The notes beneath the pieces are model-generated. The model had not been told where the DNA came from, made no database searches, and saw nothing but the letters and a program-made list of their open reading frames with translations. A program made the position numbers and the translations under genes. From a bacterium (GTDB lineage: Bacteria > Babelota > Babeliae > Babelales > UBA12409), in NCBI GenBank assembly GCA_021823685.1, contig JAKANL010000003.1:18189-82188 (forward strand): 64,000 nt of DNA. The letters are read 5' to 3'. This document shows, one piece after another, positions 22,321 to 58,919 of this stretch (the first letter of the stretch is position 1; the number at the start of each line of letters is the position of its first letter).

Positions 22321-22357
22321 CCGAAGGGTCACAGAAAAAATGTTATTAGGAAGATCG

Positions 22358-22474: not shown

Positions 22475-22511
22475 AAAGGTAGCATAAGCTAAAATGTAAA
22501 AACCCCTTTTC

Positions 22512-23761: not shown

Positions 23762-23788
23762 CTAACCCTCGTTTTTTACGTATGTTAC

Positions 23789-23893
23789 TTATTCAGAATT
23801 CCCTGAATAATAAGCCCCCCAATATTCTCGTTATTCAAAAATACTTACATAACGCCCCTTATTTTGCAACGTTATTCAAAAATACTTACATAA
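23789..23893. promoter_or_regulatory. inverted and direct repeat array (TGAATAA/TTATTCA half-sites) between Fic and toxin 1
   Basis: TTATTCAG-aattcc-CTGAATAA (23789-23810). A 24-bp direct repeat CGTTATTCAAAAATACTTACATAA occurs at 23829-23852 and 23870-23893. The CCCTGAATAA...CGTTATTCAA arrangement recurs at 57083-57120 upstream of toxin copy 3. Confidence 0.4.
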
Positions 23894-23990
23894 GAACACA
23901 AAGCTACTGCCCGCTCATCGAGTCTGTCGCACTGAGCAACGACACCTCAAAAAAGCAAAGAATATCTTTAGACAATGAGAGGTACGTTCC

Positions 23991-24020
23991 TTGAATAACT
24001 TTGAGACAATGCGCTAAGCT
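23991..24020 (+). promoter_or_regulatory. candidate sigma70-like promoter TTGAAT-18-TAAGCT of toxin 1
   Basis: TTGAAT (23991-23996), 18-nt spacer, TAAGCT (24015-24020), ~36 nt before the GTG start. The same hexamers and spacing occur at 33209-33238. Confidence 0.4.
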
Positions 24021-24056
24021 GCCGAAAATGTTTGGGAGGTCTTTAGGGGAGTTGTA

Positions 24057-26423
24057 GTGAAGCGATTGGGAATATTTTTTGCACTTACCGTGCAAGGGTT
24101 GGGGGCAATAAATAGCGAAGTACAATGGCACGATCTTCAAGATTTTTGTATGGGTTTACGGGAAAGTCCTTCGCCCATAAAAGTCCAGTCGAGAAACGAA
24201 TTTGTTGATGGTGGTTCGGCGCTTATTGATTGGGTTGTTCGGCAACATGATTACGGACCTGTAGATTACGAAAATTTTCAAAGCTCACCGAGCGAACAAA
24301 CTTCTTCGCAGAAAGATACTGCGTCACCAACAGATTCCGTTCAGCCCCTAGGCGGGAGGCCCCGCTTCGCTCAAGCTTCCGCCTTCGCTAAAGCTACTGC
24401 GGACAAGATGGCGGACAGGTCTCCGGGCAGCCAGCGATTGACCCCGAAATCCCCCGCTCACTGTTTGAAAAAACTCTCCACTCACAAAAAACTCTCCGCT
24501 CACACTGAGCTTGTCGAAGTGTGCCCATCTTCTCGCCCAGGGCAACACCCGCAGGGCAAGACCCAAAATTTAAAAAATGTTAAAAAAGCTGCAGTTTTCA
24601 AAAGCATGCTCCAACAAAGTAGTAGTATTTCGCAAGTCAAATTGCTTTATACAAACTACTGTTCGCAACTCGATAACCATTTGCTCAATCCAGCCAACTA
24701 CCAGTTGATCGATAAGCGCGTTCGTGCGCTCAAAGCAACGCTCGATCATCCGGGCCAGATTCAGGAGCGAAACATAAAATTTTCAGCGCAAGAACGAGCC
24801 GAGCTTTTAAAATCTGGCGTATCGGCGGCAGCTCTCGCCTCTCTGCGTGGCAGTGCCGCGCAGCTTGAACTGCACGAAGAATACACGTCCGTCTTTGAGC
24901 AATGGGCACAAAAGAGCCACGAAATCCGACGCTCGCTCGTGCAAGAAAGTATTGCGCAGATAACATTACAGTTTGCTGATCTTGCCGATGAATGTAATCG
25001 TAGCAATAATCTTGCTGGCAGTTACGCCATGGCCGACGTTATGCACGCGGCGTGGCAGAGTGTGCAAGAATTTTTTACGCTGGCCAAAGCGACAGCACAG
25101 GTCGATTACGAAGTTCTGGGCATACTGGGCGCAAGCGCGCTTGACGGAGCTCTCTGTGCCGGCTGTTCAACGGCGCAGGCGATCAGCCATCCGGTTCAAA
25201 CGCTCAAGGCTCTTGGCTCAACAATTGCGCGCGTAGCATATACGGCAGATATTTTGCTCGGTAATGATAAGCAGCGCAGTGCCCAAACGCGCGCTGAACT
25301 TTATGCCATGCTCAAGGCAGCAGCCAACGAATTGTCTGCCAAAGCACAATCCCAACACCCCCTCATGACGTTCAGTGACTGCGTATCCGGCGGCACGCAG
25401 TTTGTTGCCGAAGGCGTATTGGCTTCCAAATGCATGACGCTATCAGCAAACGTTCTGAGCAAAAGCGCACAAGCACTTAACAAACTTCCTGAACTGGCAA
25501 AAACAGCCGGCACCAAAATCCGCTTGCCCCTCACCGGCCCACAACGCGAACTGGCTCTTGCGCACGCCCAGGCAAGTATAGGTGAGGGATTTATTGAGGA
25601 AATGGCCCGCGCACAGACAGGTATTAGCGGAGCCCGGCGTAGCCCGATCGTAGCCACGCCCAGCCGTCGCCAAGGGCTATGGCGGGCACGGGTCGAAGAG
25701 GGGCGAAGACGGGTGCTCAAGCAAGAGCAAGAGGCGGTTCAAAAGATACCGGCTCAACAGGCTACTCCAAACGCTTCTGCCGGTTTACAATCGCAAAAAC
25801 CGTCTGCCCAACCGACGACGCCAGTTTCTCCTTCCGGTTTGCAGCCAGCCGTGCCGGGAAAACCGTCGGTTACCACCGCTTTTCCCGGGCCGTTACCAGC
25901 GCCGGGTACCCAGCAACTGCTCAAAGTGTTTGCCCTGCCAGAGCAGCAACGTGCGGCAATTATTGCGCGATACGGCAAACCCATTCCAGAAATTGGTGGC
26001 GGACAATTTAAAAATCCGCTTCACTTAATTGCGATTGATGTGAGAAAAATTGATCAAAAAACGGGTATTGTCAAAGAGTGGATGGGTTTTCACCATGATT
26101 ACCAGCATGTGTTTGAACGTAACAATGTGATTACCTTAACCGAAAAACAAAATTTGGGCGGAGGATTTTACAAAGCAAAACCAATATATGGCACGCAAAT
26201 TCCGAAGTGGAAATCGTTTTTCCCTGCCGAGTGGCCACCGGAAAAGGTTTTTGAAAAGGTTATCGAAGCACACAATAATATAAAAGATATACTGCCTGCG
26301 AGGGGTGGCAGGAAAGAATTAATTGGTTGGCTTGAGCATGAACAAAAAGCAATATCGATTATCGTTGATGACAACAAAGATATTATTACCGCATATCCGA
26401 ATTTTTCTTACCGAGGAAGATGA
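24057..26423 (+). CDS. Sec-signal polymorphic-toxin-like protein with EndoU-like RNase C-terminal domain (copy 1)
   Basis: GTG start after GGGGAG. Signal-like MKRLGIFFALTVQGLGA. The C-terminal ~170 aa read ...PLHLIAIDVRKIDQKTGIVKEWMGFHHDY...KSFFPAEWPPEKVFEKVIEAHNNI...ISIIVDDNKDIITAYP. This fits my memory of the bacterial EndoU nuclease toxin pattern (HIL.G...G.H...K..FP..W....I......I.VV.....I.TAYP). No Rhs/YD, LXG, PAAR or haemagglutinin repeats recognised. Confidence 0.75.
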   Translation: MKRLGIFFALTVQGLGAINSEVQWHDLQDFCMGLRESPSPIKVQSRNEFVDGGSALIDWVVRQHDYGPVDYENFQSSPSEQTSSQKDTASPTDSVQPLGGRPRFAQASAFAKATADKMADRSPGSQRLTPKSPAHCLKKLSTHKKLSAHTELVEVCPSSRPGQHPQGKTQNLKNVKKAAVFKSMLQQSSSISQVKLLYTNYCSQLDNHLLNPANYQLIDKRVRALKATLDHPGQIQERNIKFSAQERAELLKSGVSAAALASLRGSAAQLELHEEYTSVFEQWAQKSHEIRRSLVQESIAQITLQFADLADECNRSNNLAGSYAMADVMHAAWQSVQEFFTLAKATAQVDYEVLGILGASALDGALCAGCSTAQAISHPVQTLKALGSTIARVAYTADILLGNDKQRSAQTRAELYAMLKAAANELSAKAQSQHPLMTFSDCVSGGTQFVAEGVLASKCMTLSANVLSKSAQALNKLPELAKTAGTKIRLPLTGPQRELALAHAQASIGEGFIEEMARAQTGISGARRSPIVATPSRRQGLWRARVEEGRRRVLKQEQEAVQKIPAQQATPNASAGLQSQKPSAQPTTPVSPSGLQPAVPGKPSVTTAFPGPLPAPGTQQLLKVFALPEQQRAAIIARYGKPIPEIGGGQFKNPLHLIAIDVRKIDQKTGIVKEWMGFHHDYQHVFERNNVITLTEKQNLGGGFYKAKPIYGTQIPKWKSFFPAEWPPEKVFEKVIEAHNNIKDILPARGGRKELIGWLEHEQKAISIIVDDNKDIITAYPNFSYRGR

Positions 26424-26785
26424 TGAAAAAACTGGTATTGGTCGATAGCGAGCATGGCTACTGGAAGACGAAAGAAGATTTTGATGATGATATGGATCTT
26501 TTAAGAGCATTTCTGAATAGCAATCCAGTGCCTGACCTAAAAGAGTTTCTTGACGATCTCAATAAAGATTGGGAATTCGGGGGGGGGGATCTTGTAAATT
26601 TTGAACGTCATGATGGCCAAATAACGTTGGGCTATGATTTTGAGGACGACGGACACAAATTTACGATCAAAGAAAGTGAACTCGAAAAACTTATCATCGA
26701 CTGGCTCAAGTTGGTCGAATCTGGCGCCAAAGAAATCACGATCGAAAGTCAGGATGACGAGCATTATACGATAACGGGAAAATAG
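26420..26785 (+). CDS. candidate cognate immunity protein (copy 1)
   Basis: 121-aa ORF whose ATG overlaps the toxin stop (ATGA). Acidic. Paralogs sit in the same position after toxin copies 2 and 3. No family recognised. Confidence 0.7.
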   Translation: MMKKLVLVDSEHGYWKTKEDFDDDMDLLRAFLNSNPVPDLKEFLDDLNKDWEFGGGDLVNFERHDGQITLGYDFEDDGHKFTIKESELEKLIIDWLKLVESGAKEITIESQDDEHYTITGK

Positions 26786-28855: not shown

Positions 28856-29761
28856 TTAAGCCGCATGCTCTTTTGCCTGCGCAATTCTTCGCTCAAGCGC
28901 GGGCAGCAGCTCTTTTACATGAACTGCCGATGAAAGCCTCAGCATACGCTGGGTAATCGACAATCGATTATGCTGATCTTGCGCGCTCAGACGCTCAAAA
29001 TCAGGAAAATAGGTCTGCCAAAGCATGGTCAATGGCGGCATCGTATTCGAATGATCTTTGGCAAGATTAAAGTATTCTGAACACAGCCTAAGAAATGCTT
29101 GCTGCTCAGGCACGGGCCAGCAACTAATCGTATCATAGAGCACGCGCAACTGTGCCCGACGGTAATATTCATTGGCAACGCTCGCGCTCCCCAAACAAAC
29201 CATGTAAAGCCACAAATAGCCCGTATCTGGCAATTGAAAGCCAAGAGCGCGGTAATAGTTAAGCGCTACGTCGACGGGAATCTCAATGGCACAAGCAAGC
29301 ACAACCTTCCACAATGGCCAACGATCACCAGGCCCGAAGGCGGTCGCCGTTCCGGTGGCAATGGAGGCAAGCTGTGGAAACTCGGTGTTACCGCCCCACC
29401 ACACCTCAGTATTGATACCAAAAGTAGCCGTAGCCAGTAACGCCGTCTCCAACGCATTACGCGCTGGCTCACTCAGCCGCCACCATGCGCGGCTAACGCC
29501 TCTTCCGCACGATTGGCAGCCATGCCACAACCCAAGACACCAGCGAACTGGAGCCGCGTGCTGCTGCAGCACAACGGGGCGCTCTTCTTCCATTTGTTCG
29601 ATCGATTGCGCATCAGCAAGTAAATGGCTCGTTAATGCCACTTGACGATCACTCGACATACCAGCGAGCTGATTTATGAGGCCAACACACAAAAACGCGT
29701 ATAATAATTTTTTGCTCAACATGATAAACCTTTCTTCAACGACCGTTTTAACGTCTCGCAT
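28856..29761 (-). CDS. hypothetical secreted membrane protein (family member 2)
   Basis: 301-aa ORF; probable start at 29722 (MLSKKLLYAFLCVGLINQLAG). Central block ...SRAWWRLSEPARNALETALLATATFG...IEIPVDVALNYY... aligns with 31719-32753 (...DSWRGLSQGTRNTLVVSILLATTLA...IEVPVDVTTNWF...). Confidence 0.6.
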   Translation of the reverse strand: MRDVKTVVEERFIMLSKKLLYAFLCVGLINQLAGMSSDRQVALTSHLLADAQSIEQMEEERPVVLQQHAAPVRWCLGLWHGCQSCGRGVSRAWWRLSEPARNALETALLATATFGINTEVWWGGNTEFPQLASIATGTATAFGPGDRWPLWKVVLACAIEIPVDVALNYYRALGFQLPDTGYLWLYMVCLGSASVANEYYRRAQLRVLYDTISCWPVPEQQAFLRLCSEYFNLAKDHSNTMPPLTMLWQTYFPDFERLSAQDQHNRLSITQRMLRLSSAVHVKELLPALERRIAQAKEHAA

Positions 29762-31331: not shown

Positions 31332-31520
31332 AGTTATATCCTAACAAATATATTCAATTTGTCAACCAATACAACAAAATAATTCAAAATAAGCAAAATA
31401 AGTAATGTATATTTTTATCGCCAAGATTAAGTATGAAAGAGGCTAAAAGATTGTCAACAAGGGGAAAAACGACTGTCATAGCAACGTGATAATGTCATAT
31501 TCACTGCAACAGAAAATATC

Positions 31521-31718: not shown

Positions 31719-32753
31719 TTAAACCGCTTGCGCAGATTGCGCTTTAACTAATTTTGCTTTCAATACTTCTTGAAGCTTTGGTATCGCACCTAGATCCCTC
31801 CACGCAATGACCTTTTCTACTTGAAGACTCGCGCGATCAAGATCACGGACTTCCCAGCCAAAAGCGCGCGCATCTTCTTGATAGAGTGAACGAATAGCGG
31901 CCACTCGTTGCGTAAGGGTTGCGGGTGTACGATCATCACGCTCAATCTTTTGGAGCGCATCAATTACTTTAGGCGCCACGCTTAAGGCCAAGGCCAATTC
32001 GCGCAATGTCCATCTGCGTGCTTCGCTCACCGCTTCGCGTTTATTTTTTTCAACCATTATGCTTGAAAGGCCAGTAAGTCCCATCGCCACAGCAAGAAAA
32101 CCAGTGTGCGGACAATGCATCTGCCCAGCGCGCGCTAAAAACCAATTAGTTGTCACGTCAACAGGCACTTCAATGCCAACCGCTAAGGCTTTGCCCCAAA
32201 AGGCATATTTTGCCAGTGGGCCATAACCCATAGCAACGCCCGTTGCGGCATGAATAAGCGCGGGCACCAACTCATTGCCCCCAAATGCATCCTCTGCCGA
32301 CGCTGCTAATGTGGTAGCTAAAAGTATTGAGACAACGAGGGTGTTTCGCGTTCCCTGCGATAAGCCGCGCCAGGAATCGGTGATATGGTTCCCGCACGAA
32401 TGCATACTTTCTCTGACACGCTGCCAGCAGCTTGGGCTTGGCCGAGCGGCATCACGATGCACCACGACAATCGGCGTTTTGGTCGGAGAAGATTCAACAA
32501 CGCTCGTATTAGGCATAGCTAAAGCGGCAGATGGTGCAGCAGCACCAGAACCCATGTCGCTCATTTCAACAGCAGGCGCTGCTAAAAGAGGCCTTCTAAA
32601 TTCGCTCGCCCAACCGGACTTTTTGCCCTTGCTATCGAAACGCTCCATGCCGATTAATGGCACAAAAGCCAGACAGAGCATGGCGTATAAGACGTGACGA
32701 GAATTCATCGAGCCTCCATTTATGAATACTTCTTTAGTTCCAATAATTCCCAT
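31719..32753 (-). CDS. hypothetical secreted membrane protein (family member 4)
   Basis: 344-aa ORF with N-terminus MGIIGTKEVFINGGSMNSRHVLYAMLCLAFVPLIGMER. Paralog of 28856-29761 and 29748-31331. The upstream ~130 nt are also duplicated. Confidence 0.65.
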   Translation of the reverse strand: MGIIGTKEVFINGGSMNSRHVLYAMLCLAFVPLIGMERFDSKGKKSGWASEFRRPLLAAPAVEMSDMGSGAAAPSAALAMPNTSVVESSPTKTPIVVVHRDAARPSPSCWQRVRESMHSCGNHITDSWRGLSQGTRNTLVVSILLATTLAASAEDAFGGNELVPALIHAATGVAMGYGPLAKYAFWGKALAVGIEVPVDVTTNWFLARAGQMHCPHTGFLAVAMGLTGLSSIMVEKNKREAVSEARRWTLRELALALSVAPKVIDALQKIERDDRTPATLTQRVAAIRSLYQEDARAFGWEVRDLDRASLQVEKVIAWRDLGAIPKLQEVLKAKLVKAQSAQAV

Positions 32754-32894
32754 AGATACATCCTAATAAAATATTCAATTTGTCGGTTTAGAATCGGATT
32801 TAATTTAAAATAAGCAAAATAAATAATGCGTTTTTTGCTCCAACGTTAAGTATGAAAGAGGCTAAAATATTGTCAATAACTGGCCAAACGACCA

Positions 32895-33070
32895 GAATTT
32901 GCGAAAGCCACCCAAGCCGGACATTCTTCGCCATACTACGGCGGGCAGGCTTGGCCAAAGCGCATGTATAATGGGCGGCTGCGAAGTGCCAACAGGCCTG
33001 CCCGGTGAAGCTTTTACTCCGCTCGTCGAGCTTCGAAAAACAAGCAAGCGAAGTCGGGCGCGAATGCCAA
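32895..33070. repeat. GC-rich palindromic intergenic repeat cluster, copy R4
   Basis: Contains TGAAGCTTTTACTCCGCTCGTCGAGCTTCGAAAAACAAG (33007-33044), the same unit as 27379-27417 and rc 15412-15450. Confidence 0.65.
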
Positions 33071-33208
33071 ATTTCATAAAAAATTAACCCTTCAGCATGC
33101 TCCACAAATCCTGATTCTTACGTGCGCCCATTTTTACACAAGAGTGGCGATTGGCTCCATGGCAATATTGGGTTTTTTGTTGTTAAACCAAATTGCCGTT
33201 ACTGTGCT

Positions 33209-33238
33209 TGAATAATTTTTTGGCTATGTGTTAAGCTG
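33209..33238 (+). promoter_or_regulatory. candidate promoter TTGAAT-18-TAAGCT of the Hint/E3 toxin gene
   Basis: TTGAAT 33209-33214, 18-nt spacer, TAAGCT 33233-33238. The surrounding ATAATTTTTTGGCTATGTGTTAAGCTGCC closely matches 57156-57182 (ATATTTTTTGGCAATGAGCTAAGCTGTC). Confidence 0.4.
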
Positions 33239-33277
33239 CCGTGGGTTTTTATCACAGCATCTTTTTTTTGGAGAATT

Positions 33278-34435
33278 GTGGTGAAGTGGGCAGTAGTATT
33301 TGCGGCCTTAAGTACCGCCAAGTGTTTGTTGGGAGATGGATTTTGCGCAGGGACGCATGTTAAAACGCCTGGTGGTTATGCCGCGATTGAACAGATTAAA
33401 CAAAAAGATCTCATTATTGGTTTTGATGCACGGCTCGGCGTATGCGCACCTTGCATCGTAAATGCGATTAACAAAAAACGTGTGAATCAAGTTATTAGGC
33501 TGACCACTGGGGGGCAAGAGCTCTATGTTGGATGCCAGCAGCGATTTTTGTGCCTGAACCAAAGAAGAAATGATCTGAAGCGCTGGTTGATTTGGACAAA
33601 GGTGCGTGATCTTAAACGGGGTATGCGGCTATTGAGCGCGAATAAAATCAGCGTTTGTGTTGATACCGTTCAGCGTATGGCCAGGCCGATAGATGTATAT
33701 GAGTTAAGTGTAGCTGGGGCGCATACGTATATTGTAACTGAACATGATCTTGTTGCGCACAATGTCGCTCCCATTGTAATTCCCTTTGTTTATACCGTCG
33801 GAGAGGGCGTAACAATTGCCTGGGGAGCTGCGGCGGCGTTGCTTGGATATGCGACGATCCATCACGCTGTAGGAAACCGCTGTGATACGTCAGGATTATG
33901 CGGACCACACACGGTTGATGAAATACAAAATCATCAGGACAATTGGAGTCGCTTAGTCCGCGAGCGAACGATCAGCGCTGATCGTTCTAAACTGCACTTG
34001 TGCTATGGTGGCAGTAATGGAGGGCCAGATCGCAATAATAAGTCGCCATGTAATCCCAATAAGGGAAAAAATAAAAATCCTCAGCAGCCATCGGATCCGA
34101 ATAATGCGCGTAATAAAAATCAAAGGCAAGGGCCGAAAAATGTAAACTCAAGACAAGTTGCTGCCAAAGAACGTAAATTTAATACGATGGAAAGGGCGGA
34201 GGTTTTTCGGAAAGGTAAATTTAAGCAAGACTATAAAACGTGCAAAAACGGCCGTTATGTAAAAAAAACCGGTGTCGAAGGATTTGGGAAAAGAGCGCAA
34301 TATTTAGAGTGGGATAATTTTCATAAAGATATGGAAATGTATGATAAATTTGGCCGGCATCAAGGATGTATAGAGCCGATTACTGAAAAAATATATAAAC
34401 CAGCCGTACCTGGCCGAACGATTAATGTAAGGTAA
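33278..34435 (+). CDS. Hint-domain polymorphic toxin with colicin-E3-like 16S rRNase C-terminal domain
   Basis: 385 aa. Signal-like N-terminus, then Hint blocks GFCAGTHVKTPGGYAAIEQIKQKDLIIGFD ... YELSVAGAHTYIVTEHDLVAHN, then a hydrophobic segment and an Asn/Lys/Pro-rich linker. The C-terminus ...KRAQYLEWDNFHKDMEMYDKFGRHQGCIEPITEKIYKPAVPGRTINV aligns with the colicin E3 end ...KIYEWDSQHGELEGYRASDGQHLGSFDPKTGNQLKGPDPKRNIKKYL recalled from memory. The D, H and E of the catalytic WD..H...E string are retained. Confidence 0.8.
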   Translation: MVKWAVVFAALSTAKCLLGDGFCAGTHVKTPGGYAAIEQIKQKDLIIGFDARLGVCAPCIVNAINKKRVNQVIRLTTGGQELYVGCQQRFLCLNQRRNDLKRWLIWTKVRDLKRGMRLLSANKISVCVDTVQRMARPIDVYELSVAGAHTYIVTEHDLVAHNVAPIVIPFVYTVGEGVTIAWGAAAALLGYATIHHAVGNRCDTSGLCGPHTVDEIQNHQDNWSRLVRERTISADRSKLHLCYGGSNGGPDRNNKSPCNPNKGKNKNPQQPSDPNNARNKNQRQGPKNVNSRQVAAKERKFNTMERAEVFRKGKFKQDYKTCKNGRYVKKTGVEGFGKRAQYLEWDNFHKDMEMYDKFGRHQGCIEPITEKIYKPAVPGRTINVR

Positions 34436-34438
34436 TGT

Positions 34439-35647
34439 ATGAAGAAAATCGACATTCTGGATAAATTGTACAAAAAAATGATCACGCAGAGAGAGGCTGA
34501 GGCCATTTATGTAGACGTTTTTGATAAATTCAATCGAGGGATATTAAAAACTGATCCGGTAAAACTTTTATGTTTATCCCATAAAGAGAAAATTGCGATT
34601 CGGCTGCATGATATATCGCTTAAAGTCTTGGCAAAATGGCGGTATGAGGGTTGGCCAAAAACCTGCGCCATTTGCGATAAACCTGTGGCGATAGGAAAAG
34701 TTGATTGGTGCGTCTTTGAGCGAAAGAAAATTGGCGGTAAAATGCGCAGCGAGGTGGTTATGCATGGGGATTGTTACTCAGCAATGCCCACCCCGAAAAA
34801 GGCATCGCAAGATCTCTACGAGATTTTTGATCGAGCGTGTGCGAAGGCCTCTGATGAACGATTGATGCGCCTTTTAGCGCGATTTAAAAAAATGGATTAC
34901 CTTGCAGCTCCCATCATTTTTGATCTCATTTGTGCAAAAAGAATCAGAGTTCTTAAATTATTGCATGAGCAACACGTACCATTTTCTTATTTGGCTTCTT
35001 CTGGTGGTAACGCACTTCACGCCGCCTGTGGCATTTCAGGCAGCCTTGAGGCGGTAAAATTTTTAATCAAAAATAATATTCTTACGGATATTAATGCCGA
35101 ATGCGATGATGGAGAAACGCCATTTCTTTTGGCTGTGATGTACAATCACATGGATATTGTTGAGTATTTTTTTGAACATTTTACTCCGAATGTAACCATT
35201 TCCACACTTCATGGTGATACACCGCTTTCACTTGCCAAAAAAAATGGCAACACACTATTATACGCTCTTATCACAGCGCATTTGCCAGAAACAAGTACGC
35301 CGATTTTAAAATTAAGTAGAAATGAGCTCAAACACGCTTTCGAAGGTGTATTGGCCATATTAATCGACGACGACATAAAGGAAATTGAATTTCCGGACAG
35401 AGCAATCTATTTTTGTCGGATCTTGAACAAAAAAGATGAAAATGACGGCTCGCCCGAATCAAACATTGTTGGATCATTAAGCGAAGATATGGCATCGCTT
35501 AAAGAAAGTATACATGGTAAAAAAGGATGGTTTGAATTAGACATCGAACGCTTTGGAGCGATACTTCTTGCACTTGGTGCACGAGTAAAAAGTACATATC
35601 CCAAACGCAGAGCACGGGTGTCTGGGCGTAAGATTGACGTGAGATAA
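34439..35647 (+). CDS. ankyrin-repeat protein; candidate immunity partner of the E3-like toxin
   Basis: 402-aa ORF starting 3 nt after the toxin stop. Middle ANK repeats (GGNALHAACGISGSLEAVKFLIKNN...DGETPFLLAVMYNHMDIVEYFF...HGDTPLSLAKKNGNTLL). The N-terminal ~130 aa are unassigned and carry C..C/H..C pairs. Confidence 0.75.
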   Translation: MKKIDILDKLYKKMITQREAEAIYVDVFDKFNRGILKTDPVKLLCLSHKEKIAIRLHDISLKVLAKWRYEGWPKTCAICDKPVAIGKVDWCVFERKKIGGKMRSEVVMHGDCYSAMPTPKKASQDLYEIFDRACAKASDERLMRLLARFKKMDYLAAPIIFDLICAKRIRVLKLLHEQHVPFSYLASSGGNALHAACGISGSLEAVKFLIKNNILTDINAECDDGETPFLLAVMYNHMDIVEYFFEHFTPNVTISTLHGDTPLSLAKKNGNTLLYALITAHLPETSTPILKLSRNELKHAFEGVLAILIDDDIKEIEFPDRAIYFCRILNKKDENDGSPESNIVGSLSEDMASLKESIHGKKGWFELDIERFGAILLALGARVKSTYPKRRARVSGRKIDVR

Positions 35648-38241: not shown

Positions 38242-38610
38242 CTATTTTCCCGTTATCGCGTAGTGCTCGTCATCCTGACTCTCGATGGTAATCTCTTTTG
38301 CGCCCGATGCGACGAGCTTGAGCCAGCCGATCAAAATCTTTTCAAGCTCACTTTCTTTGATGGTGAATGAGGGCCCATCTTCTTCGAATTCGTAACTTAG
38401 CTTTATATAACCATCATGGCGTTCAAGAGTAATAAGATTTCCTCCAGCAGAATCCCAATCTTTATTTTTTTGTAAGAACTCGAGGCTGTATTCGAGAAAA
38501 TCGGGGCAATCACCAACTAAAAATAGCATTAAAAATCCAAAGCCCGCTTCAGGCTCTTCTTTGGGTTTCCAATAGCCCGACTTACTTTCAAATAGAACCA
38601 TTTTTTTCAT
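38242..38610 (-). CDS. candidate cognate immunity protein (copy 2)
   Basis: 122-aa ORF with ATGA overlap with toxin copy 2. Its C-terminal half is near-identical to copies 1 and 3; its N-terminal half is diverged. Confidence 0.7.
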   Translation of the reverse strand: MKKMVLFESKSGYWKPKEEPEAGFGFLMLFLVGDCPDFLEYSLEFLQKNKDWDSAGGNLITLERHDGYIKLSYEFEEDGPSFTIKESELEKILIGWLKLVASGAKEITIESQDDEHYAITGK

Positions 38611-41042
38611 TTTTTTACTTTCTTCAATAAATCCGGATACGCCGTAATGATATTCTTACTCTTATCGATAATAATTTTTATTGCTTTTTGTTCAGTTTCG
38701 AGCCACCCAACCAGTACCTGTCTACCCGCTTCTGCTGGATAAATTTCCTTTATATTTCCATATGCCTCAAGAACTTTCTCAAAGACTTTTTCTGGCGGCC
38801 AGTCTGCTGGGAAAAATGATTTGGGAGTCGGTTTTTGCATTCCATATTTTGCCTCTTTAACAAAATAAAAACCACCACCATAATCAAGCTTGTTAGGCAA
38901 ACTAATCACATTATTTCGCTCAAGCACACATCGGTAATCATGGTGAAATCCCATCCATTTTTCAACAAGGCCACTTTTTTGATCAATTTTTCTGACGTCA
39001 AGCGCAATCAAATGGAGCGGTTGTGTAAAACATGCACCACCAATTTCCGGAATCGGTTTGCCATATCGCGCAATAATCGCTGCACGTTGTTGCTCCGGCA
39101 GGGCAAACACTTTGAGCAATTGCTGGGTACCCGGCGCGGGTAACGGCCCGGGAAAAGCGGTGGTAACGGTTGGTTTCTCAGGTACGGCTGGTTGCAAACC
39201 GGAAGAAACTGGCTTCGTCGGCTGAGCAAGCGGATTCTGCGGCTGTGACCCTGAAGAAGCTCCTGCTGGCTGGGTGGGTATTTTTTGAGCCGCCTGTTGC
39301 TCTTGCTTGAGCAGATTGCTGGCAAGCGATTTTTTCGGCGCATGGGCAAGCTCTTCGGCAAAGCCCTCGCCGATACTGGCTTGTGCATGAGCAAGGGCGA
39401 ATTCGCGCTGTGAGCCGGCAAGCGGCAAGCGGATTTTGGTGCCCGAGGCCCTGTCCGCCATCTTGTCCGCCATAGTCTTGACGACGGCGGAAGTCTTGAC
39501 GGCGGCGGAGGCTTTTGCCAGCGCGGGAAGTTTGTTAAGTGCTTGTGCGCTTTTGTTCAGAACGTTTGCCGATAGCGTTAAACATTTGGAAGCCAATACG
39601 CCTTCGGCAACAAACTGCGTACCGCCGGATACGCAATCACTGAACGTCATGAGAGGGTGTTGGGACTTAGCTTTGGCACACAATTCGTTGGCTGCTGCCT
39701 TGAGCATGGCATAAAGTTCAGCGCGCGTTTGGGCACTGCGTTGCTCATCATCGCCGAGCAAAATATCTGCCGTATATGCCACGCGTGCAATTGTTGCACC
39801 GAGAGTTTTCAGCGAGGCGAAAAGATTTTCGGCTGTTTGAAGGGGATGAACAACCATCTGCGCTGTTGAGCAGCCGGCACAGAGAGCTCCGTCAAGCGCG
39901 CTTGTGCCCAGTATGCCCAGAACTTCGTAATCGACCTGTGCTGTCGCTTTGGCCAGCGTAAAAAATTCTTGCACACTCTGCCACGCCGCATGCATAACGT
40001 CGGCCATAGCGTAACCGCCAGCAAGATTATTGCCGCGGTTAAACGCATCGGCACATTCGGCAAATTGCAGCGCAATATGCGCAATATGTTCTTGAACGAG
40101 CGAGCGTCGGATTTCGTGACTCTTTTGCGCCCATTGTTCAAAGACGGACCTGTATTCTTCGTGCAGTTCTACCTGCGCAGCGTTACCACGCAGGGGAAGA
40201 AGTGCAGCCGCTGGCATACCAGCTTTTGTAAGCTCAGTCCGTTCCTGCGCTGAAAGTTTTATGTTGCGCTCGTGCAATTGCCCCGGGTGATCAAGGGTTG
40301 CTTTGAGCGCACGAACGCGTTTATCGATTATTTGGTAACTGGTTGGATTAAGCGAACGGTTATCGAGCTGTGAACAGTAGTTTGTGTAGAGTTGTTTGGC
40401 CTGCCCTGCGGAGCCTTGGCAAAGCGGGGTTTGAGCAATACTGCTGTTTTGTTGGAGCATGTTTTTTGCCGCGATAGTTGTCTTAAAATGATTTTGAGCC
40501 TTTGCGCTCACTGTTGTGGTCTGAGCCGAATGCTCGAACTTCTCGTTCGGGGTCGACAGGCGAGCGGCCACCTTGGGAGCGCAGGGTTTCCAAAGGGGTT
40601 TACCCCCTTTGGCGTGGGGATTGGAAAGGGCCGAACGAGGGGTCCTTTCCGGCCTCCCGCGTAGGGGCAAAACTGAATTTGATATGGTAACGTTCTGCGT
40701 AGAATGGTACTCACAATGTCTCTGCGCGTTCTCGTACTCTTGGCAAGCCTGTATCCATCGTTGTTCGCGCATCTGCTCAATAATTTCAAAGTTTTCTGGC
40801 ATACTCTGATGGTCGGTTCGATATGATACGTCTATCTGTACAGGATTGTGGTACGTTAATGCGTCACTTGATCGAGGCAAACACATTCGTATAGTAGCCG
40901 ATTCTGGCCATTGAACGTGCAAAGCTTGCTCTTTGTGTTGTCTTAACAAAGCCGTCTGGGCAGCCAGCTTAATATCACGTGCTGGCAAATTACTTTGACA
41001 AGCAATACTTGTCAGAAAAATAACTACTCTCAATCGTTTCAC
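38607..41042 (-). CDS. Sec-signal polymorphic-toxin-like protein with EndoU-like RNase C-terminal domain (copy 2)
   Basis: 811 aa. GTG start after AGGGG. Signal-like MKRLRVVIFLTSIACQS. Central region near-identical to copy 1. C-terminus ...HLIALDVRKIDQKSGLVEKWMGFHHDY...KSFFPADWPPEKVFEKVLEAY...IKIIIDKSKNIITAYP. Confidence 0.75.
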   Translation of the reverse strand: MKRLRVVIFLTSIACQSNLPARDIKLAAQTALLRQHKEQALHVQWPESATIRMCLPRSSDALTYHNPVQIDVSYRTDHQSMPENFEIIEQMREQRWIQACQEYENAQRHCEYHSTQNVTISNSVLPLRGRPERTPRSALSNPHAKGGKPLWKPCAPKVAARLSTPNEKFEHSAQTTTVSAKAQNHFKTTIAAKNMLQQNSSIAQTPLCQGSAGQAKQLYTNYCSQLDNRSLNPTSYQIIDKRVRALKATLDHPGQLHERNIKLSAQERTELTKAGMPAAALLPLRGNAAQVELHEEYRSVFEQWAQKSHEIRRSLVQEHIAHIALQFAECADAFNRGNNLAGGYAMADVMHAAWQSVQEFFTLAKATAQVDYEVLGILGTSALDGALCAGCSTAQMVVHPLQTAENLFASLKTLGATIARVAYTADILLGDDEQRSAQTRAELYAMLKAAANELCAKAKSQHPLMTFSDCVSGGTQFVAEGVLASKCLTLSANVLNKSAQALNKLPALAKASAAVKTSAVVKTMADKMADRASGTKIRLPLAGSQREFALAHAQASIGEGFAEELAHAPKKSLASNLLKQEQQAAQKIPTQPAGASSGSQPQNPLAQPTKPVSSGLQPAVPEKPTVTTAFPGPLPAPGTQQLLKVFALPEQQRAAIIARYGKPIPEIGGACFTQPLHLIALDVRKIDQKSGLVEKWMGFHHDYRCVLERNNVISLPNKLDYGGGFYFVKEAKYGMQKPTPKSFFPADWPPEKVFEKVLEAYGNIKEIYPAEAGRQVLVGWLETEQKAIKIIIDKSKNIITAYPDLLKKVKK

Positions 41043-41132
41043 TACAACCCCTTTTTCTTTCGAGAATCATGCAACGCAGAATGCAGAGTCAACAAAAACG
41101 ATTGGGAAACGGCCCAAAAAAATTTGAAAAAA

Positions 41133-41420
41133 CTAACGCGCTTCAGGTACCAGTTTTTGAAATTGCTGCGCAAGGCGATAAGAACGCGCTTTATTTGATG
41201 GATTTGCAATAATCAAAAAACCGTCAGTTACCCACTGGCTACAAAGATGCGCACTCGTGCGTGGCTTGAAACCAAAAAGCTCACCAACTTGGCGCGCCGT
41301 AACCGTTTCGGCATGCTCAAAGAGTTCCAACGCACGCTGCTGTTTATGATCGAGGTGGCGTATCAAAAAGGAATATGCGTAAAATGCATACTTCTTCTTG
41401 CTTATGTACACTTTGCCCAC
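41133..41420 (-). CDS. small winged-helix (wHTH) DNA-binding-like protein
   Basis: 95 aa. ...QQRALELFEHAETVTARQVGELFGFKPRTSAHLCSQWVTDGFLIIANPSNKARSYRL resembles the wHTH tail found at the C-terminus of Fic-family proteins. Lies 91 nt upstream of toxin copy 2 on the same strand. Confidence 0.5.
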   Translation of the reverse strand: MGKVYISKKKYAFYAYSFLIRHLDHKQQRALELFEHAETVTARQVGELFGFKPRTSAHLCSQWVTDGFLIIANPSNKARSYRLAQQFQKLVPEAR

Positions 41421-57050: not shown

Positions 57051-57149
57051 TACTCTTCATGCGCTCCCTCTAAAAAACCCTACCCTGAATAACACGTAGC
57101 ATAATAAACGTTATTCAAGCAATGCTTTTGCCCGCTATAAGCCCCACTC

Positions 57150-57179
57150 TAGAAATATTTTTTGGCAATGAGCTAAGCT
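57150..57179 (+). promoter_or_regulatory. candidate promoter (TAGAAA-18-TAAGCT) of toxin copy 3
   Basis: TAAGCT at 57174-57179 lies within a ~27-nt block shared with 33215-33241. The -35 is weaker than in the other two copies. Confidence 0.3.
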
Positions 57180-57208
57180 GTCACTTTGTCTTTTTTAGGA
57201 GGGTTGGC

Positions 57209-58554
57209 GTGAGACAGTTGTGGATCGTTTTTTTACTTGCCGCGCAAAGCATAATAGCAGTCGATTGGATGGTGCCGCCGCGCATTTTACGCCAGCAAGA
57301 AACAGCAATCGCAGTGGCGTTTTTGCCACAAAAAACGCCACTGCAAGTTCAGTCACAAAACGAGTTTGTCGATGGCGGTTCTGCGCTTATGGATTGGGTC
57401 ATCCGGCAGCGTGATTACATGCCTGCATATCACGAAAGCATTCCAACCCCAGAAAATACTGTGTCGCCAACAAACCAAAATAATAATCAGCCTAAAAAAG
57501 TCGTGCTCGCGCATGCTTCCGCCGTCGCTAAAGCTAAGGCGGACAGGTCTTCGGGCAACTGGCGATCGACCAAAAAAACAACTGGTCAAGCCAACGCGGC
57601 TGCTGCGGCCGTCTTGCGGAAGCAACAGATAAAACAACTCTACACAAACTTCTGTTCACAACTCGATAATAAAACAATTGATACCAAGAATTACCAAATA
57701 ATCGATAAACGCGTTCGCGCACTCAAAGCAACTCTCGACCATCCTGGTCAGATTCAGGAACGAAGCATAAAATTTTCAGCGCAAGAACAAGCCGAGCTTT
57801 TAAAATCTGGCGTGCCAGCAGCGGCGCTTACTTCGCTACGCGGCAACGCTGCGCAAGCCGAACTACACGAAGAATACGGGTCAGTTTTTGAACAGTGGGC
57901 ACAAAAGAACAGCAGACTGCCCAACAAATATCCACCCAGCAAGCAACACCGATTTCTTCTCCCGGCCTACAACCAGCTGTTTCTGAAAAACCAATCGTTA
58001 CCGCCGCTTTTTCTGGGCCATTACCAGCGCCTGGCACCCAACAGTTGCTCAAAGTGTTTGCGCTGCCCGAACAGCAACGGAAGGCAATTATTGCCCGATA
58101 CGGCAAACCAATTTCTGAAACAGATGGCCTTTGTTTTAAGAATCCACTCCATTTGATAACAATTGATGTGAGAAAAATTGATCAAAAAACTGGTATCGTC
58201 AAAGAGTGGATGGGATTCCATCATGATCATTTAAATACACTTGAGCGGAACAATGTTGTCAAAATAACCAGCAGGAATGATTTTGGTGATAGTTTTTATG
58301 AAGCAATCGTAGCGTATGGAACGCAAGTGCCAAAGAAAAAATCTTTTTTCCCAGCCGAATGGCCGCCGGAAAAAGTCTTTGAAAAAGTTCTTGAGGCCTA
58401 TGAAAACATTATCGAAACAACTTCAACAAACTCAGGTGGACAAAAAATAATTGGTTGGCTTGAAAAGGAGCAAAAAACAATCGAGATTATAATGGACAAA
58501 AACAGGAATATTATTACAGCATACCCAAAACTGCTATACGAGGGGTCCAAATGA
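57209..58554 (+). pseudogene. EndoU-like toxin copy 3, internally deleted (~0.8 kb) and frameshifted
   Basis: GTG 57209 after AGGAGG gives VRQLWIVFLLAAQSIIA. Homology to copy 1 runs to ...FEQWAQK (about 57900), then jumps to ...EQQTAQQISTQQATP... in another frame (track ORFs 57122-58156 and 57895-58554). The C-terminal EndoU-like domain is intact (GFHHDH...KKSFFPAEWPPEKVFEKVLEAY...IITAYP). Confidence 0.7.
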
Positions 58555-58919
58555 AAAAATTATTTCTATATAAAAGTGCATGCGGCTATTGGAAACCAAA
58601 AGAGAGCCTCGATTCAAACATGGAGCTTCTCTGGTCTTTTTTCGCTGACGATTCAATCAAATTTCTCGAATATAGTCTGGAATTTTTACAAAAAAACAAA
58701 GATTGGGAATCCGCGGGGGGCGATGCTATCGATCTTAGACGCCATGATGGCCAAATAACTTTAAGTTACGAATTCGAAGAAGATGGACCATCGTTTACGA
58801 TCAAAGAAAGTGAGCTGGAAAAGATTCTTGTCGGATGGCTTAAATTGGTCAAATCGGGCGCAAAGGAAATCATGATCGAAAGCCAAGATGATGAGCATTA
58901 TACGATAACGGGAAAATAG
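58551..58919 (+). CDS. candidate cognate immunity protein (copy 3)
   Basis: 122-aa intact ORF with ATGA overlap with the toxin remnant. Closest to copy 2 (…FLEYSLEFLQKNKDW.SAGG…). Confidence 0.7.
   Translation: MKKLFLYKSACGYWKPKESLDSNMELLWSFFADDSIKFLEYSLEFLQKNKDWESAGGDAIDLRRHDGQITLSYEFEEDGPSFTIKESELEKILVGWLKLVKSGAKEIMIESQDDEHYTITGK

What the first reader, a model, noticed from the sequence alone, without database searches (positions are those of the whole stretch)
33209..33238. Promoter-like block TTGAAT-18-TAAGCT shared by otherwise unrelated toxin genes
The Hint/E3 toxin gene and EndoU toxin copy 1 are unrelated in coding sequence. Both are preceded by TTGAAT, an 18-nt spacer and TAAGCT (33209-33238 and 23991-24020), about 35-40 nt before their GTG starts. 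EndoU copy 3 keeps the -10 side in a ~27-nt block almost identical to the Hint/E3 one (57156-57182 ATATTTTTTGGCAATGAGCTAAGCTGTC versus 33215-33241 ATAATTTTTTGGCTATGTGTTAAGCTGCC). In copy 1 and the Hint/E3 gene the -35 hexamer is embedded in TGAATAA, the half-site of the inverted repeats described in the next finding. This suggests one regulon or common control for the toxin arsenal, or a shared 5' cassette that moves between toxin genes. Copy 2 lacks the block and instead sits 91 nt behind a small wHTH gene.
Basis: seen in the sequence. Interest (0 to 1): 0.6.

Follow-up and report, generated by a model that had tools for sequence, protein, structure and literature searches.

The report
Shared promoter block before toxin genes
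Three toxin genes of an uncultured bacterium, two related and one unrelated, are each preceded by the same 36-base stretch that looks like a weak promoter, so they are probably switched on together, which is a sensible but fairly ordinary arrangement.

Summary
TTGAAT-18-TAAGCT occurs exactly twice in the window (23991-24020 and 33208-33237; 0.01 expected). EndoU copy 3 has TAGAAA-18-TAAGCT at 57150-57179. These belong to one ungapped 36-nt block (23989-24024, 33206-33241, 57148-57183) with pairwise identity 25-28/36. In leave-one-out weight-matrix scans each copy scores 29-36 bits; the best other site scores 16 or less.

Each block faces its toxin gene in a divergent intergenic region, 30-43 nt before a GTG start, where a promoter is needed and no better sigma-70 match lies on that strand. 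It is more conserved than synonymous sites of the EndoU paralogues (0.69-0.78 against about 0.50). It has no indels, although the leader downstream varies by 13 nt. Similarity stops at its 5' edge.

My best reading is a weak sigma-70-family core promoter shared by descent or recombination and kept for common control. No transcription start is mapped. The source genome is absent from the searchable DNA collections, so the genome-wide test could not be run. Distant Hint/E3 relatives lack the block. This is a new member of a known kind, of modest interest.

The parts
33206..33241 (+). Block copy upstream of the Hint/E3 toxin gene: GCTTGAATAATTTTTTGGCTATGTGTTAAGCTGCCG. The -35-like TTGAAT is at 33208-33213, the spacer is 18 nt, and the -10-like TAAGCT is at 33232-33237. 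TGT precedes the -10 (TGn extended -10).
   Evidence: The weight-matrix score is 50.3 bits and the leave-one-out score is 36.3 bits, rank 3 of 127,930 positions.
23989..24024 (+). Block copy upstream of EndoU toxin copy 1: CCTTGAATAACTTTGAGACAATGCGCTAAGCTGCCG. The -35-like hexamer is at 23991-23996 and the -10-like hexamer at 24015-24020.
   Evidence: It shares 28/36 positions with the Hint/E3 copy and has a leave-one-out score of 31.9 bits.
57148..57183 (+). Block copy upstream of EndoU copy 3: TCTAGAAATATTTTTTGGCAATGAGCTAAGCTGTCA. The degenerate -35 TAGAAA is at 57150-57155 and the -10-like TAAGCT at 57174-57179.
   Evidence: It shares 27/36 positions with the Hint/E3 copy and 25/36 with EndoU1, with a leave-one-out score of 29.4 bits.
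33270..33284 (+). Shine-Dalgarno and start region of Hint/E3: GGAGAATTGTGGTGA. The GTG start used by the public gene call is at 33281.
   Evidence: The pattern GGRGNNTTGNNGTGA matches only the three block-bearing genes in the window.
24046..24060 (+). Shine-Dalgarno and GTG start region of EndoU1: GGGGAGTTGTAGTGA.
57198..57212 (+). Shine-Dalgarno and GTG start region of EndoU3: GGAGGGTTGGCGTGA.
33281..34435 (+). Hint/E3 toxin gene: a 21-aa leader, a PT-HINT domain and a colicin-E3-type Cytotoxic domain.
34439..35647 (+). 402-aa ankyrin-repeat gene directly after Hint/E3. The same pairing occurs in relative L007, so it is a candidate immunity partner (inferred).
24057..26785 (+). EndoU toxin copy 1 (24057-26423) plus the overlapping 121-aa putative immunity gene (26420-26785).
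57209..58919 (+). EndoU copy 3, split into an N-terminal fragment (57209-58156) and an EndoU fragment (57895-58554, other frame), followed by an intact 122-aa putative immunity gene (58551-58919).
38607..41420 (-). EndoU copy 2 (41042-38607) behind a 95-aa ORF (41420-41133). It has no block. Similarity to EndoU1 starts only about 12 nt before the GTG.
23788..23999 (.). Cluster of five YTGAATAA / GTTATTCAR sites between the Fic gene and EndoU1 (23789, 23803, 23831, 23872, 23991). The last one is the -35 of the block.
57085..57119 (.). Inverted pair CTGAATAAC-N17-GTTATTCAAG, about 30 nt upstream of the EndoU3 block.

Best explanation
The 36-nt block is the core promoter of three toxin-immunity transcription units: EndoU1, Hint/E3-Ank and the decayed EndoU3 with its intact immunity gene.

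Proposed anatomy (inferred):
- The -35 is TTGAAT (TAGAAA in EndoU3).
- The spacer is a fixed 18 nt.
- The -10 is TAAGCT, with the key A at position 2 and T at position 6, and an invariant G at -14.
- Transcription would start about 7 nt downstream, giving 5' leaders of roughly 22-36 nt that run into a T-rich tract, a GGRG Shine-Dalgarno and a GTG start.

The -10 matches only 3 of 6 consensus positions and the spacer is one base longer than optimal. The promoter is therefore probably weak on its own. It would then depend on, or be tuned by, a factor that reads the conserved spacer and the TTGAATAA that overlaps the -35, or on a stationary-phase-type sigma factor (CTAAGCT resembles the sigma-S-type CTAnnCT).

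The block is shared because the 5' regulatory cassette has one origin. EndoU1 and EndoU3 share it by duplication. Hint/E3, whose coding region is unrelated, shares it by recombination or promoter capture. It has since been kept by selection, with co-regulation of the toxin genes as the consequence.

Shown: the block's existence, specificity, position, orientation, lack of indels and above-neutral conservation. Inferred: promoter activity, the transcription start, and any regulator.
For: 1. Specificity.
- There are two exact TTGAAT-18-TAAGCT matches against 0.01 expected, and three TWGAAW-18-TAAGCT matches against 0.05 expected.
- In leave-one-out weight-matrix scans each copy ranks directly after the two training copies among 127,930 positions. 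Scores are 29-36 bits against 16 or less for anything else.
- Local alignment z-scores are 7.9 (Hint/E3 vs EndoU1) and 7.5 (Hint/E3 vs EndoU3).
- Among 1,596 real 160-nt windows, the best non-self matches to the Hint/E3 upstream region are the EndoU1 and EndoU3 upstream regions.

2. Position.
- All three copies are on the coding strand, 29-43 nt before the GTG.
- Each sits in an intergenic region whose other neighbour is transcribed divergently (Fic 22616-23761(-); 31719-32753(-); SDR 56232-57050(-)). Each toxin gene therefore needs its own promoter there.
- The simple sigma-70 scan finds no 9/12 or better site on the + strand in the Hint/E3 or EndoU3 intergenic regions. In EndoU1 it finds only a non-conserved one that overlaps the block.

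3. The organism uses -35/-10 promoters of this type. TTGAAA-16-TATCAT lies 13 nt before tRNA-Tyr.

4. Constraint.
- Block identity is 25/36, 27/36 and 28/36.
- Four-fold degenerate sites of EndoU1 vs EndoU3 are only 0.46-0.54 identical. Binomial P at p = 0.5 is 0.014, 0.002 and 0.0006.
- There are no indels in the 36 nt, and the 18-nt spacing is exact in all three, while the distance from the block to the start codon varies by 13 nt.
- Similarity ends at the 5' edge of the block (upstream z 0.3-2.8).

5. The 7-nt run TAAGCTG and the G at -14 are invariant.

6. By analogy, distant Hint/E3 homologues L008 and L009 carry their own conserved TTTGCA-17-TAYATT at about the same distance from the start.

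7. No RNA family matches. Leader folds have z-scores from -1.1 to +1.2. No small ORF is common to the three blocks.
Against: - No transcription start or expression data exist for this uncultured organism.
- TAAGCT matches only 3/6 of TATAAT, and the whole element scores 7/12, below the 9/12 cut-off of the consensus scan.
- There are only three copies. Two of them head paralogous genes, so part of the similarity is simple inheritance.
- The neutral benchmark comes from coding synonymous sites of two of the three genes. It assumes the Hint/E3 copy is at least as old. A more recent gene-conversion tract would give the same identity without any selection.
- EndoU3 is a broken gene, so its copy may be decaying; its private changes cluster in the -35.
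- The rest of the genome could not be scanned, so a wider, non-toxin distribution is not excluded.
- Homologues in other organisms do not carry the block, so there is no cross-species footprint.
Confidence: 0.6

Rival explanations
1. The block is a neutral relic or a gene-conversion tract. It is left over from duplication, or was copied between toxin loci by a short recombination event, and has no function of its own. The real promoters lie elsewhere in the intergenic regions.
For: - EndoU1, EndoU2 and EndoU3 are mosaic paralogues with 70-84% identical segments, so recombination among toxin loci clearly happens.
- Other paralogue pairs in the window also share upstream sequence (31412-31473 and 32831-32892).
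- Only three copies exist.
- EndoU3 is a broken gene.
Against: - Block identity exceeds four-fold-site identity of the same paralogues.
- The Hint/E3 copy is not close to either EndoU copy in particular. It has 2 private changes against 4 and 5, a star-like pattern (from the sequences). A recent conversion from one of them is therefore unlikely.
- The 18-nt spacing is exact while the leader next to it has indels.
- No alternative conserved promoter exists in the three regions.
Confidence: 0.15
2. The block is mainly an operator or an alternative-sigma promoter. A lineage-specific DNA-binding protein, or a stress or stationary-phase sigma factor, recognises it, and this defines a dedicated toxin regulon. 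The TTGAATAA / GTTATTCAA sites are the regulator's half-sites.
For: - 10 of the 18 spacer positions are invariant, which is unusual for a plain promoter.
- YTGAATAA occurs 15 times against 7.3 expected, and 8 of the 15 lie in the three toxin upstream regions, about 1.5% of the window.
- One such site forms the -35 in two copies.
- The -10 region CTAAGCT, with C at -13 in two of three copies, resembles sigma-S-type -10 elements (own knowledge).
- The poor -10 and the 18-nt spacer suggest a need for activation.
Against: - The block has no consistent dyad or direct-repeat symmetry (inspection of the sequences).
- EndoU3 lacks TTGAATAA at its -35.
- Spacer conservation can equally be explained by shared descent.
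- No regulator is identified. The Fic C-terminal wHTH hits are below the Pfam cut-offs, and the 95-aa ORF has no family hit and no usable model.
- GTTATTCAR with one mismatch is not enriched window-wide (42 against 34.5 expected).
Confidence: 0.15
3. The block is transcribed and acts in the leader RNA. One possibility is the conserved two-codon mini-ORF AUG-NGN-UAA (ATGTGTTAA, ATGCGCTAA, ATGAGCTAA). Another is an RNA structure that controls translation of the toxin.
For: - ATG and TAA are invariant and in frame in all three copies, with only the middle codon varying.
- An alternative TTCAAG-16-TATAAG just upstream of the EndoU3 block (read) could start transcription at the edge of the block.
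Against: - No Shine-Dalgarno precedes the ATG.
- No upstream promoter is conserved in the other two loci.
- Folding energies do not differ from shuffles (z -1.1 to +1.2), and the predicted structures differ between copies.
- There is no Rfam match.
- TAA is simply the first half of the -10-like hexamer.
Confidence: 0.05
4. The block is a recombination site or the end of a mobile toxin cassette, for example an integrase target or the terminal repeat of a small mobile element.
For: - Similarity begins abruptly at the same 5' edge in all three loci.
- The toxin loci are scattered among housekeeping genes.
- An orphan immunity-gene fragment at 22498-22596 shows that cassettes have been rearranged.
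Against: - There is no second copy, direct or inverted, at the far end of any module. The weight-matrix scan of both strands finds only the three copies.
- The block has no internal dyad.
- No integrase or transposase was noticed next to any copy.
- No matches in viral contigs go beyond an unrelated repeat.
Confidence: 0.05

Closest known systems
Sigma-70-family bacterial promoters (-35 TTGACA / 17 nt / -10 TATAAT), in particular weak, activator-dependent or sigma-S-type promoters with non-consensus -10 elements
   Same: - Two hexamers at promoter spacing, with the key -10 positions (A2, T6) and TTGA of the -35 present.
- G at -14, as in an extended -10.
- The right strand and the right distance from the start codon.
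- The same genome shows TTGAAA-16-TATCAT in front of a tRNA operon.
   Different: - Only 3/6 matches in the -10 and an 18-nt spacer.
- More than half of the spacer is also conserved between copies, which ordinary independent promoters do not show.
- No start site has been mapped.
Conserved regulatory regions of colicin and other bacteriocin operons, where toxins with different killing domains share near-identical promoter-operator regions with LexA boxes (own knowledge, not tested against a paper here)
   Same: - Toxin genes with unrelated cytotoxic domains, one of them of colicin E3 type, carry the same promoter-proximal block.
- The block is followed by toxin and then immunity genes, which implies common control.
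   Different: - No LexA-type box (CTGT-N8-ACAG) is present in the block.
- The loci are chromosomal, not plasmid-borne.
- There are no lysis genes.
- The organism and its regulators are unknown.
Effector regulons of Legionella and Coxiella, where unrelated effector genes share a short element at a fixed distance from the -10. Examples are the PmrA tandem repeat (own knowledge) and the local regulators with elements next to the -10 described in PMC6989116 and PMC12239595.
   Same: - A short cis element overlaps or abuts the core promoter and recurs in front of unrelated secreted-protein genes.
- The window encodes ankyrin, Fic and DUF2608 proteins, typical of host-associated bacteria.
   Different: - The PmrA-type tandem TTAA repeat is absent.
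- Only three copies are known.
- Here the entire promoter, not a separate upstream element, is the conserved unit.
- The taxonomy of the organism is unresolved (ribosomal protein L1 scores higher against Bacillus and Thermus than against E. coli).
Polymorphic toxin loci (CDI, Rhs, MafB and similar), in which a constant 5' part is combined with variable toxin-immunity cassettes by recombination (own knowledge)
   Same: - There are several toxin-immunity modules, an orphan immunity fragment, mosaic paralogues and a PT-HINT pretoxin domain.
- A constant 5' piece sits in front of different toxins.
   Different: - The constant piece is non-coding (promoter, leader and start), not a long N-terminal delivery domain.
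- The Hint/E3 coding region, including its short leader peptide, belongs to its own family (L007, L008 and L009 homologues).

Membership tests
Sigma-70-type promoter | A -35-like and a -10-like hexamer separated by 16-18 nt, with A at position 2 and T at position 6 of the -10 | tested here: met
   TTGAAT (4/6) or TAGAAA (4/6), an 18-nt spacer, and TAAGCT (3/6, with A2 and T6 present) in all three copies. The total of 7/12 is below the 9/12 cut-off of the simple scan.
Sigma-70-type promoter | Located upstream of, and oriented towards, a gene that needs its own promoter, with a plausible leader length | tested here: met
   All three copies lie on the coding strand in divergent intergenic regions, 29-43 nt before the GTG starts.
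Sigma-70-type promoter | Transcription starts 5-9 nt downstream of the -10 | not testable with these tools
   No transcript data are available for this uncultured organism.
Sigma-54 promoter | GG at -24 and GC at -12 at a fixed spacing (TGGCAC-N5-TTGC) | tested here: not met
   TTGGC(A/T)ATGNGNTAAGC places GG and GC one base too far apart. EndoU1 has GAGAC with no GG (sequences).
MerR-type promoter | A 19-20-nt spacer that contains a dyad-symmetric operator | tested here: not met
   The spacer is 18 nt. No dyad is shared by the three spacers (sequences).
SOS (LexA)-controlled bacteriocin promoter | One or two LexA boxes (CTGT-N8-ACAG in the gammaproteobacterial type) overlapping the promoter | tested here: not met
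   No such box lies in or next to any of the three blocks. LexA motifs of other phyla were not searched systematically.
PmrA-type effector regulon element | Tandem repeat cTTAATatT-N2-cTTAATatT (TTAA-N7-TTAA) at a fixed distance upstream of the -10 | tested here: not met
   There is a single TTAA in the Hint/E3 copy only, and none in the EndoU1 or EndoU3 blocks (sequences). The consensus was recalled from memory.
Known cis-regulatory RNA (Rfam) | A match to a covariance model at the gathering score | tested here: not met
   Only rRNA and tRNA matches were found in the window. The leaders fold no better than shuffles.
Dispersed repeat or mobile-element terminus (REP, MITE, IS end) | Many copies in both orientations, or paired inverted copies flanking a unit | tested here: not met
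   There are three copies, all oriented towards a toxin gene, with no partner copies. This could be tested only in the window and the fetched loci, not in the whole genome.

The most novel reading that the evidence does not exclude
The block, together with the TTGAATAA / GTTATTCAA sites clustered around the toxin genes, would be the operator-promoter of a lineage-specific regulon. That regulon would switch on a whole arsenal of otherwise unrelated secreted toxins. The promoter unit itself would be portable: recombination would place it in front of newly acquired toxin-immunity modules, which would explain how an unrelated Hint/E3-ankyrin module came to carry it.
Probability: 0.2. Interest if true: 0.5.

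Novelty: new member of a known kind. Interest (0 to 1): 0.27.

Why it matters
If the block is the promoter, three toxin-immunity units of an uncultured, probably host-associated bacterium would be under one control. Two belong to an orphan EndoU toxin family with no relatives among 5.8 billion proteins, and one is a HINT-colicin-E3 toxin.

The block would also show that a non-coding 5' cassette, not only a coding N-terminal domain, can be the constant part shared between different toxins. It gives a concrete 36-nt probe for finding further toxin or effector genes in this genome and for fishing out the regulator.

The mechanism itself, a shared promoter giving co-regulation, is conventional.

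Tried and rejected
- **Cross-species footprinting failed.** The EndoU N-terminal region has no homologues beyond the window's own copies 1 and 2. Hint/E3 has only three distant relatives or groups: L007 at 40% identity, and L008 and L009 at 27-29%. None carries the block.
- **The genome-wide motif search failed.**
  - The pattern GAANNNNTTTNNGNCNATGNGNTAAGCTG gave 3 matches in unrelated genomes among the GTDB representatives. The one I inspected lies inside a gene, and all three score 24 bits or less against the weight matrix.
  - The same pattern gave 0 matches in JGI metagenome contigs.
  - A looser pattern in viral contigs hit only an unrelated repeat.
  - The window's own copies were not returned, so the source genome is not in those collections.
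- **Organism identity was not resolved.** Public records are GCA_027347085.1, ENA ERZ27237563 and Logan SRR13300764. Cluster look-up gave no names, and no paper mentions the accessions.
- **wHTH check of the 95-aa ORF gave nothing usable.** It has no family hit and no similarity to the Fic C-terminus. The AlphaFold model has pLDDT 49.8, so no fold search was run.
- **The RNA-element idea was rejected**.
- **A small ORF across the block was rejected**.
- **Sigma-54, MerR, LexA and PmrA readings were rejected** on spacing or sequence.
- **Reading the opposite strand was rejected.** GTGACA-16-AAAAAT at 57184..57157 overlaps the EndoU3 block, but it is not conserved in the other two copies.
- **Literature searches on shared toxin promoters gave nothing directly relevant**.
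Full report
**1. What is in the sequence**

TTGAAT, 18 nt, TAAGCT occurs exactly at 23991-24020 and at 33208-33237 on the + strand. The second coordinate is one base lower than reported. Dinucleotide shuffles of the window give 0.01 exact matches on average, and none of 100 shuffles reached two.

A degenerate -35 (TAGAAA) also sits at the same 18-nt distance, at 57150-57179. The relaxed pattern TWGAAW-N18-TAAGCT finds exactly these three sites against 0.05 expected.

The hexamers are part of one ungapped 36-nt block:

| Gene | Coordinates | Sequence |
|---|---|---|
| EndoU1 | 23989-24024 | CCTTGAATAACTTTGAGACAATGCGCTAAGCTGCCG |
| Hint/E3 | 33206-33241 | GCTTGAATAATTTTTTGGCTATGTGTTAAGCTGCCG |
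| EndoU3 | 57148-57183 | TCTAGAAATATTTTTTGGCAATGAGCTAAGCTGTCA |

Pairwise identities are 28/36 (EndoU1 vs Hint/E3), 25/36 (EndoU1 vs EndoU3) and 27/36 (Hint/E3 vs EndoU3). The invariant positions are .CT.GAA..A.TTT..G.C.ATG.G.TAAGCTG.C..

**2. Is it more than chance?**

Four tests say yes.
- A weight matrix built from any two copies ranks the third directly behind its two training copies among all 127,930 positions on both strands. Scores are 29-36 bits, against 16 or less for the best unrelated site.
- Local alignment of the 160 nt around the start codons gives z = 7.9 (Hint/E3 vs EndoU1) and 7.5 (Hint/E3 vs EndoU3) against shuffles.
- Against 1,596 real 160-nt windows of the same sequence, the two best non-self matches to the Hint/E3 upstream region are the EndoU1 and EndoU3 upstream regions.
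- No fourth copy exists in the window. Copy 2 lacks the block, and its similarity to EndoU1 begins only about 12 nt before the GTG.

**3. The genes behind the block**

Pfam confirms the toxin calls.
- EndoU_bacteria is at the C-termini of 24057-26423, of 38607-41042(-) and of 57895-58554.
- PT-HINT plus the colicin-E3-type Cytotoxic domain is in 33281-34435.
- A 402-aa ankyrin-repeat protein follows Hint/E3.
- Small ORFs of about 121 aa follow the EndoU genes.

EndoU3 is broken. About 880 nt of the middle are missing relative to EndoU1, and the EndoU part is in another frame. Public gene calls also split it, into 315 aa and 128 aa. Its downstream putative immunity gene is intact.

The EndoU N-terminal region is an orphan. 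Among 5.8 billion proteins only the window's own copies 1 and 2 are found.

Hint/E3 has three distant relatives or groups.
- P0004 is 40% identical and again followed by a 402-aa ankyrin protein (locus L007).
- Two soil-metagenome loci, L008 and L009, are 27-29% identical.
- None of them has the block: the weight-matrix best score is 7.8 bits or less.

The window itself matches a metagenome-assembled genome (GCA_027347085.1) and ENA and Logan contigs at 100% identity. I could not name the organism.

**4. Why a promoter is the best reading**

- In all three loci the upstream neighbour is transcribed away from the toxin gene: Fic 22616-23761(-), the 344-aa gene 31719-32753(-), and an SDR oxidoreductase 56232-57050(-). 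Each toxin gene therefore needs its own promoter in a 158-527-nt intergenic region.
- The block is on the coding strand. Its TAAGCT ends 36, 43 and 29 nt before the GTG. A start about 7 nt downstream would give ordinary leaders of about 22-36 nt.
- The consensus scan finds no 9/12 or better promoter on the + strand in the Hint/E3 and EndoU3 regions. In EndoU1 it finds only a non-conserved one that overlaps the block.
- The organism uses classical -35/-10 promoters. TTGAAA-16-TATCAT sits 13 nt before the first tRNA of a tRNA cluster.
- The distant Hint/E3 homologues L008 and L009 share their own TTTGCA-17-TAYATT about 45 nt before the start, which is the same layout with a different sequence.

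There are caveats. TAAGCT matches TATAAT at only three positions, although these include the critical A2 and T6. With TTGAAT it reaches 7/12, and the spacer is 18 nt. This would be a weak promoter. A G at -14 is invariant, and the Hint/E3 copy has the full TGn extended -10.

**5. Evidence for constraint**

- Four-fold degenerate sites of EndoU1 vs EndoU3 are 0.46-0.54 identical. The block is 0.69 identical between these two genes and 0.75-0.78 identical to the Hint/E3 copy. Binomial P values are 0.014, 0.002 and 0.0006 at p = 0.5.
- The 36 nt contain no indel and the 18-nt spacing is exact, while the leader just downstream differs in length by up to 13 nt.
- Upstream of the block the three regions are unalignable (z 0.3-2.8).
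- Downstream, the Hint/E3 leader shows only weak similarity to EndoU1 (z 3.7). It consists of a T-rich run, GGRG and TTGNNGTGA.
- A three-way comparison of the sequences is star-like. Hint/E3 has 2 private changes. EndoU1 has 4, clustered in the spacer. EndoU3 has 5, clustered in the -35 and just after the -10.

The Hint/E3 copy is therefore not a fresh copy of either EndoU block. The broken gene has the most degraded -35.

**6. How it most likely works**

Inference: a weak sigma-70-family promoter heads each toxin-immunity unit. Its non-consensus -10 and long spacer keep basal expression low, which is sensible for toxins that also use GTG starts. A factor would be needed to raise or gate it.

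Two candidate inputs can be read from the sequence.
- A protein may bind TTGAATAA / GTTATTCAA. YTGAATAA occurs 15 times against 7.3 expected. Eight of the 15 lie in the three toxin upstream regions, and one forms the -35 in two copies.
- A sigma-S-like holoenzyme may be involved, because CTAAGCT resembles CTAnnCT (own knowledge).

Neither was tested. The Fic protein has only sub-threshold wHTH hits. The 95-aa ORF has no family hit, no similarity to Fic, and an unusable structure model.

**7. Origin**

The identity extends through the spacer, which argues for one origin rather than convergence. EndoU1 and EndoU3 share the block by duplication. The Hint/E3-ankyrin module is a separate, older family (L007 has it without the block). 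The module therefore probably acquired the promoter by recombination within this lineage.

The window shows that such processes are active.
- The EndoU paralogues are mosaic.
- An orphan immunity-gene fragment lies at 22498-22596.
- Another paralogue pair, 29748-31331(-) and 31719-32753(-), shares its upstream TTGACA-16-CATACT.

Their relative weight is open.

**8. Rivals**

- **Neutral relic or conversion tract (0.15).** This is possible, but it fits poorly with the above-neutral identity, the absence of indels and the star-like pattern.
- **Mainly an operator or an alternative-sigma promoter (0.15).** This is compatible with the conserved spacer. The block has no symmetry and no regulator is identified.
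- **Transcribed leader element (0.05).** All three copies contain an in-frame ATG-NGN-TAA. However, there is no Shine-Dalgarno before it, no conserved upstream promoter, no RNA family match and no significant fold.
- **Recombination site or mobile-element end (0.05).** There is no partner copy and no recombinase nearby.

**9. Comparison with known systems**

The block works like an ordinary bacterial core promoter. The sharing resembles three known situations:
- the conserved promoter-operator regions of colicin operons (own knowledge);
- the short elements that tie unrelated Legionella effector genes into regulons (PMC6989116 and PMC12239595 for local regulators; the PmrA element from memory);
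- the constant 5' parts of polymorphic toxin loci.

It fails the defining features of sigma-54, MerR-type, LexA-box and PmrA-type promoters, and it matches no Rfam family. It is best filed as a new member of a known kind.

**10. Limits**

- Only three copies are known, from one uncultured organism, with no expression data.
- The rest of the genome could not be scanned. The pattern search of GTDB representatives returned three matches in unrelated genomes, and the JGI contigs returned none.
- The statement that the block is toxin-specific therefore holds for this 64-kb window only.

Noticed in passing
window 57209-58554: EndoU copy 3 is split. The N-terminal fragment (57209-58156) and the EndoU-domain fragment (57895-58554) are in different frames, and about 880 nt present in EndoU1 are missing. 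The immunity-like gene 58551-58919 is intact. Public gene calls on a Logan contig also split it into 315 aa and 128 aa.
   Followed up: yes
window 22498-22596: An orphan 99-nt piece is 89% identical to the 3' end of the EndoU1 immunity-like gene (26685-26783). It lies just downstream of the Fic gene and looks like a remnant of a displaced toxin-immunity module.
   Followed up: partly
window 21923-22470: Three tandem small ORFs (period 210-226 nt) each begin with a conserved 63-nt segment encoding MK(K/R)Y(V/L)PW...IAG..VW, a predicted membrane helix. Their function is unknown.
   Followed up: no
window 31412-31473 and 32831-32892 (genes 29748-31331 and 31719-32753, - strand): Two orphan paralogous genes share their 5' coding region and an upstream block containing TTGACA-16-CATACT. 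This is a second case of promoter sharing in the window, here by plain duplication.
   Followed up: partly
window 27261-27315, 27378-27432, 33004-33058; also 15268-15312, 58918-58962, 59096-59140: Two families of short dispersed intergenic repeats (55 nt and 45 nt; the latter contains CTTCGA..CTCAGGATGAGCGG). They look like REP-type elements. One copy lies 150 nt upstream of the Hint/E3 block.
   Followed up: no
window 23788-23999 and 57085-57119: YTGAATAA / GTTATTCAR sites are concentrated around the toxin genes: 8 of the 15 in the window. They include a perfect TTATTCAG-N6-CTGAATAA palindrome at 23789-23810 before the Fic gene, and a 24-nt direct repeat CGTTATTCAAAAATACTTACATAA at 23829 and 23870.
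   Followed up: partly
window 24057, 33281, 41042(-), 57209; L007 59 and 733: All four toxin genes in the window start with GTG followed by AAR or AGA. Both HINT genes of relative L007 also start with GTG followed by AAA. This may be a family habit that keeps translation initiation low.
   Followed up: no
window 33341-33346 (protein residues 21-26); L007: The window's Hint/E3 protein has the HINT N-terminal Cys (GFCAGT) right after a 21-aa leader. The L007 homologues have GFVADT and GFIAGT with no Cys, so autoprocessing may differ between relatives.
   Followed up: no
window 24009-24017, 33226-33234, 57168-57176: An invariant in-frame ATG-NGN-TAA (ATGCGCTAA, ATGTGTTAA, ATGAGCTAA) lies inside the block, and its TAA is the first half of the -10-like hexamer. 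It is probably incidental, but it would be a two-codon mini-ORF if the block were transcribed.
   Followed up: partly
window 41102-41117 (- strand): A terminator-like hairpin followed by a T run (TTGGGCCGTTTCCCAA TCGTTTTTGT) lies between the 95-aa ORF and EndoU copy 2. It is followed by TTGACT-15-CATGAT, so copy 2 may have its own, different promoter.
   Followed up: no
window 36476-37215: Three tandem copies of about 270 nt (61-77% identical) lie inside the orphan 365-aa ORF 36139-37236, downstream of the Hint/E3-ankyrin pair.
   Followed up: no
L008 2640-2710 and L009 315-385: Distant Hint/E3 homologues from soil metagenomes share their own promoter-like TTTGCA-17-TAYATT about 45 nt before the start. 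They are followed by a 98-aa ORF rather than an ankyrin protein. In the contig of the related protein P0005, the equivalent 92-aa downstream product carries DUF6980.
   Followed up: partly
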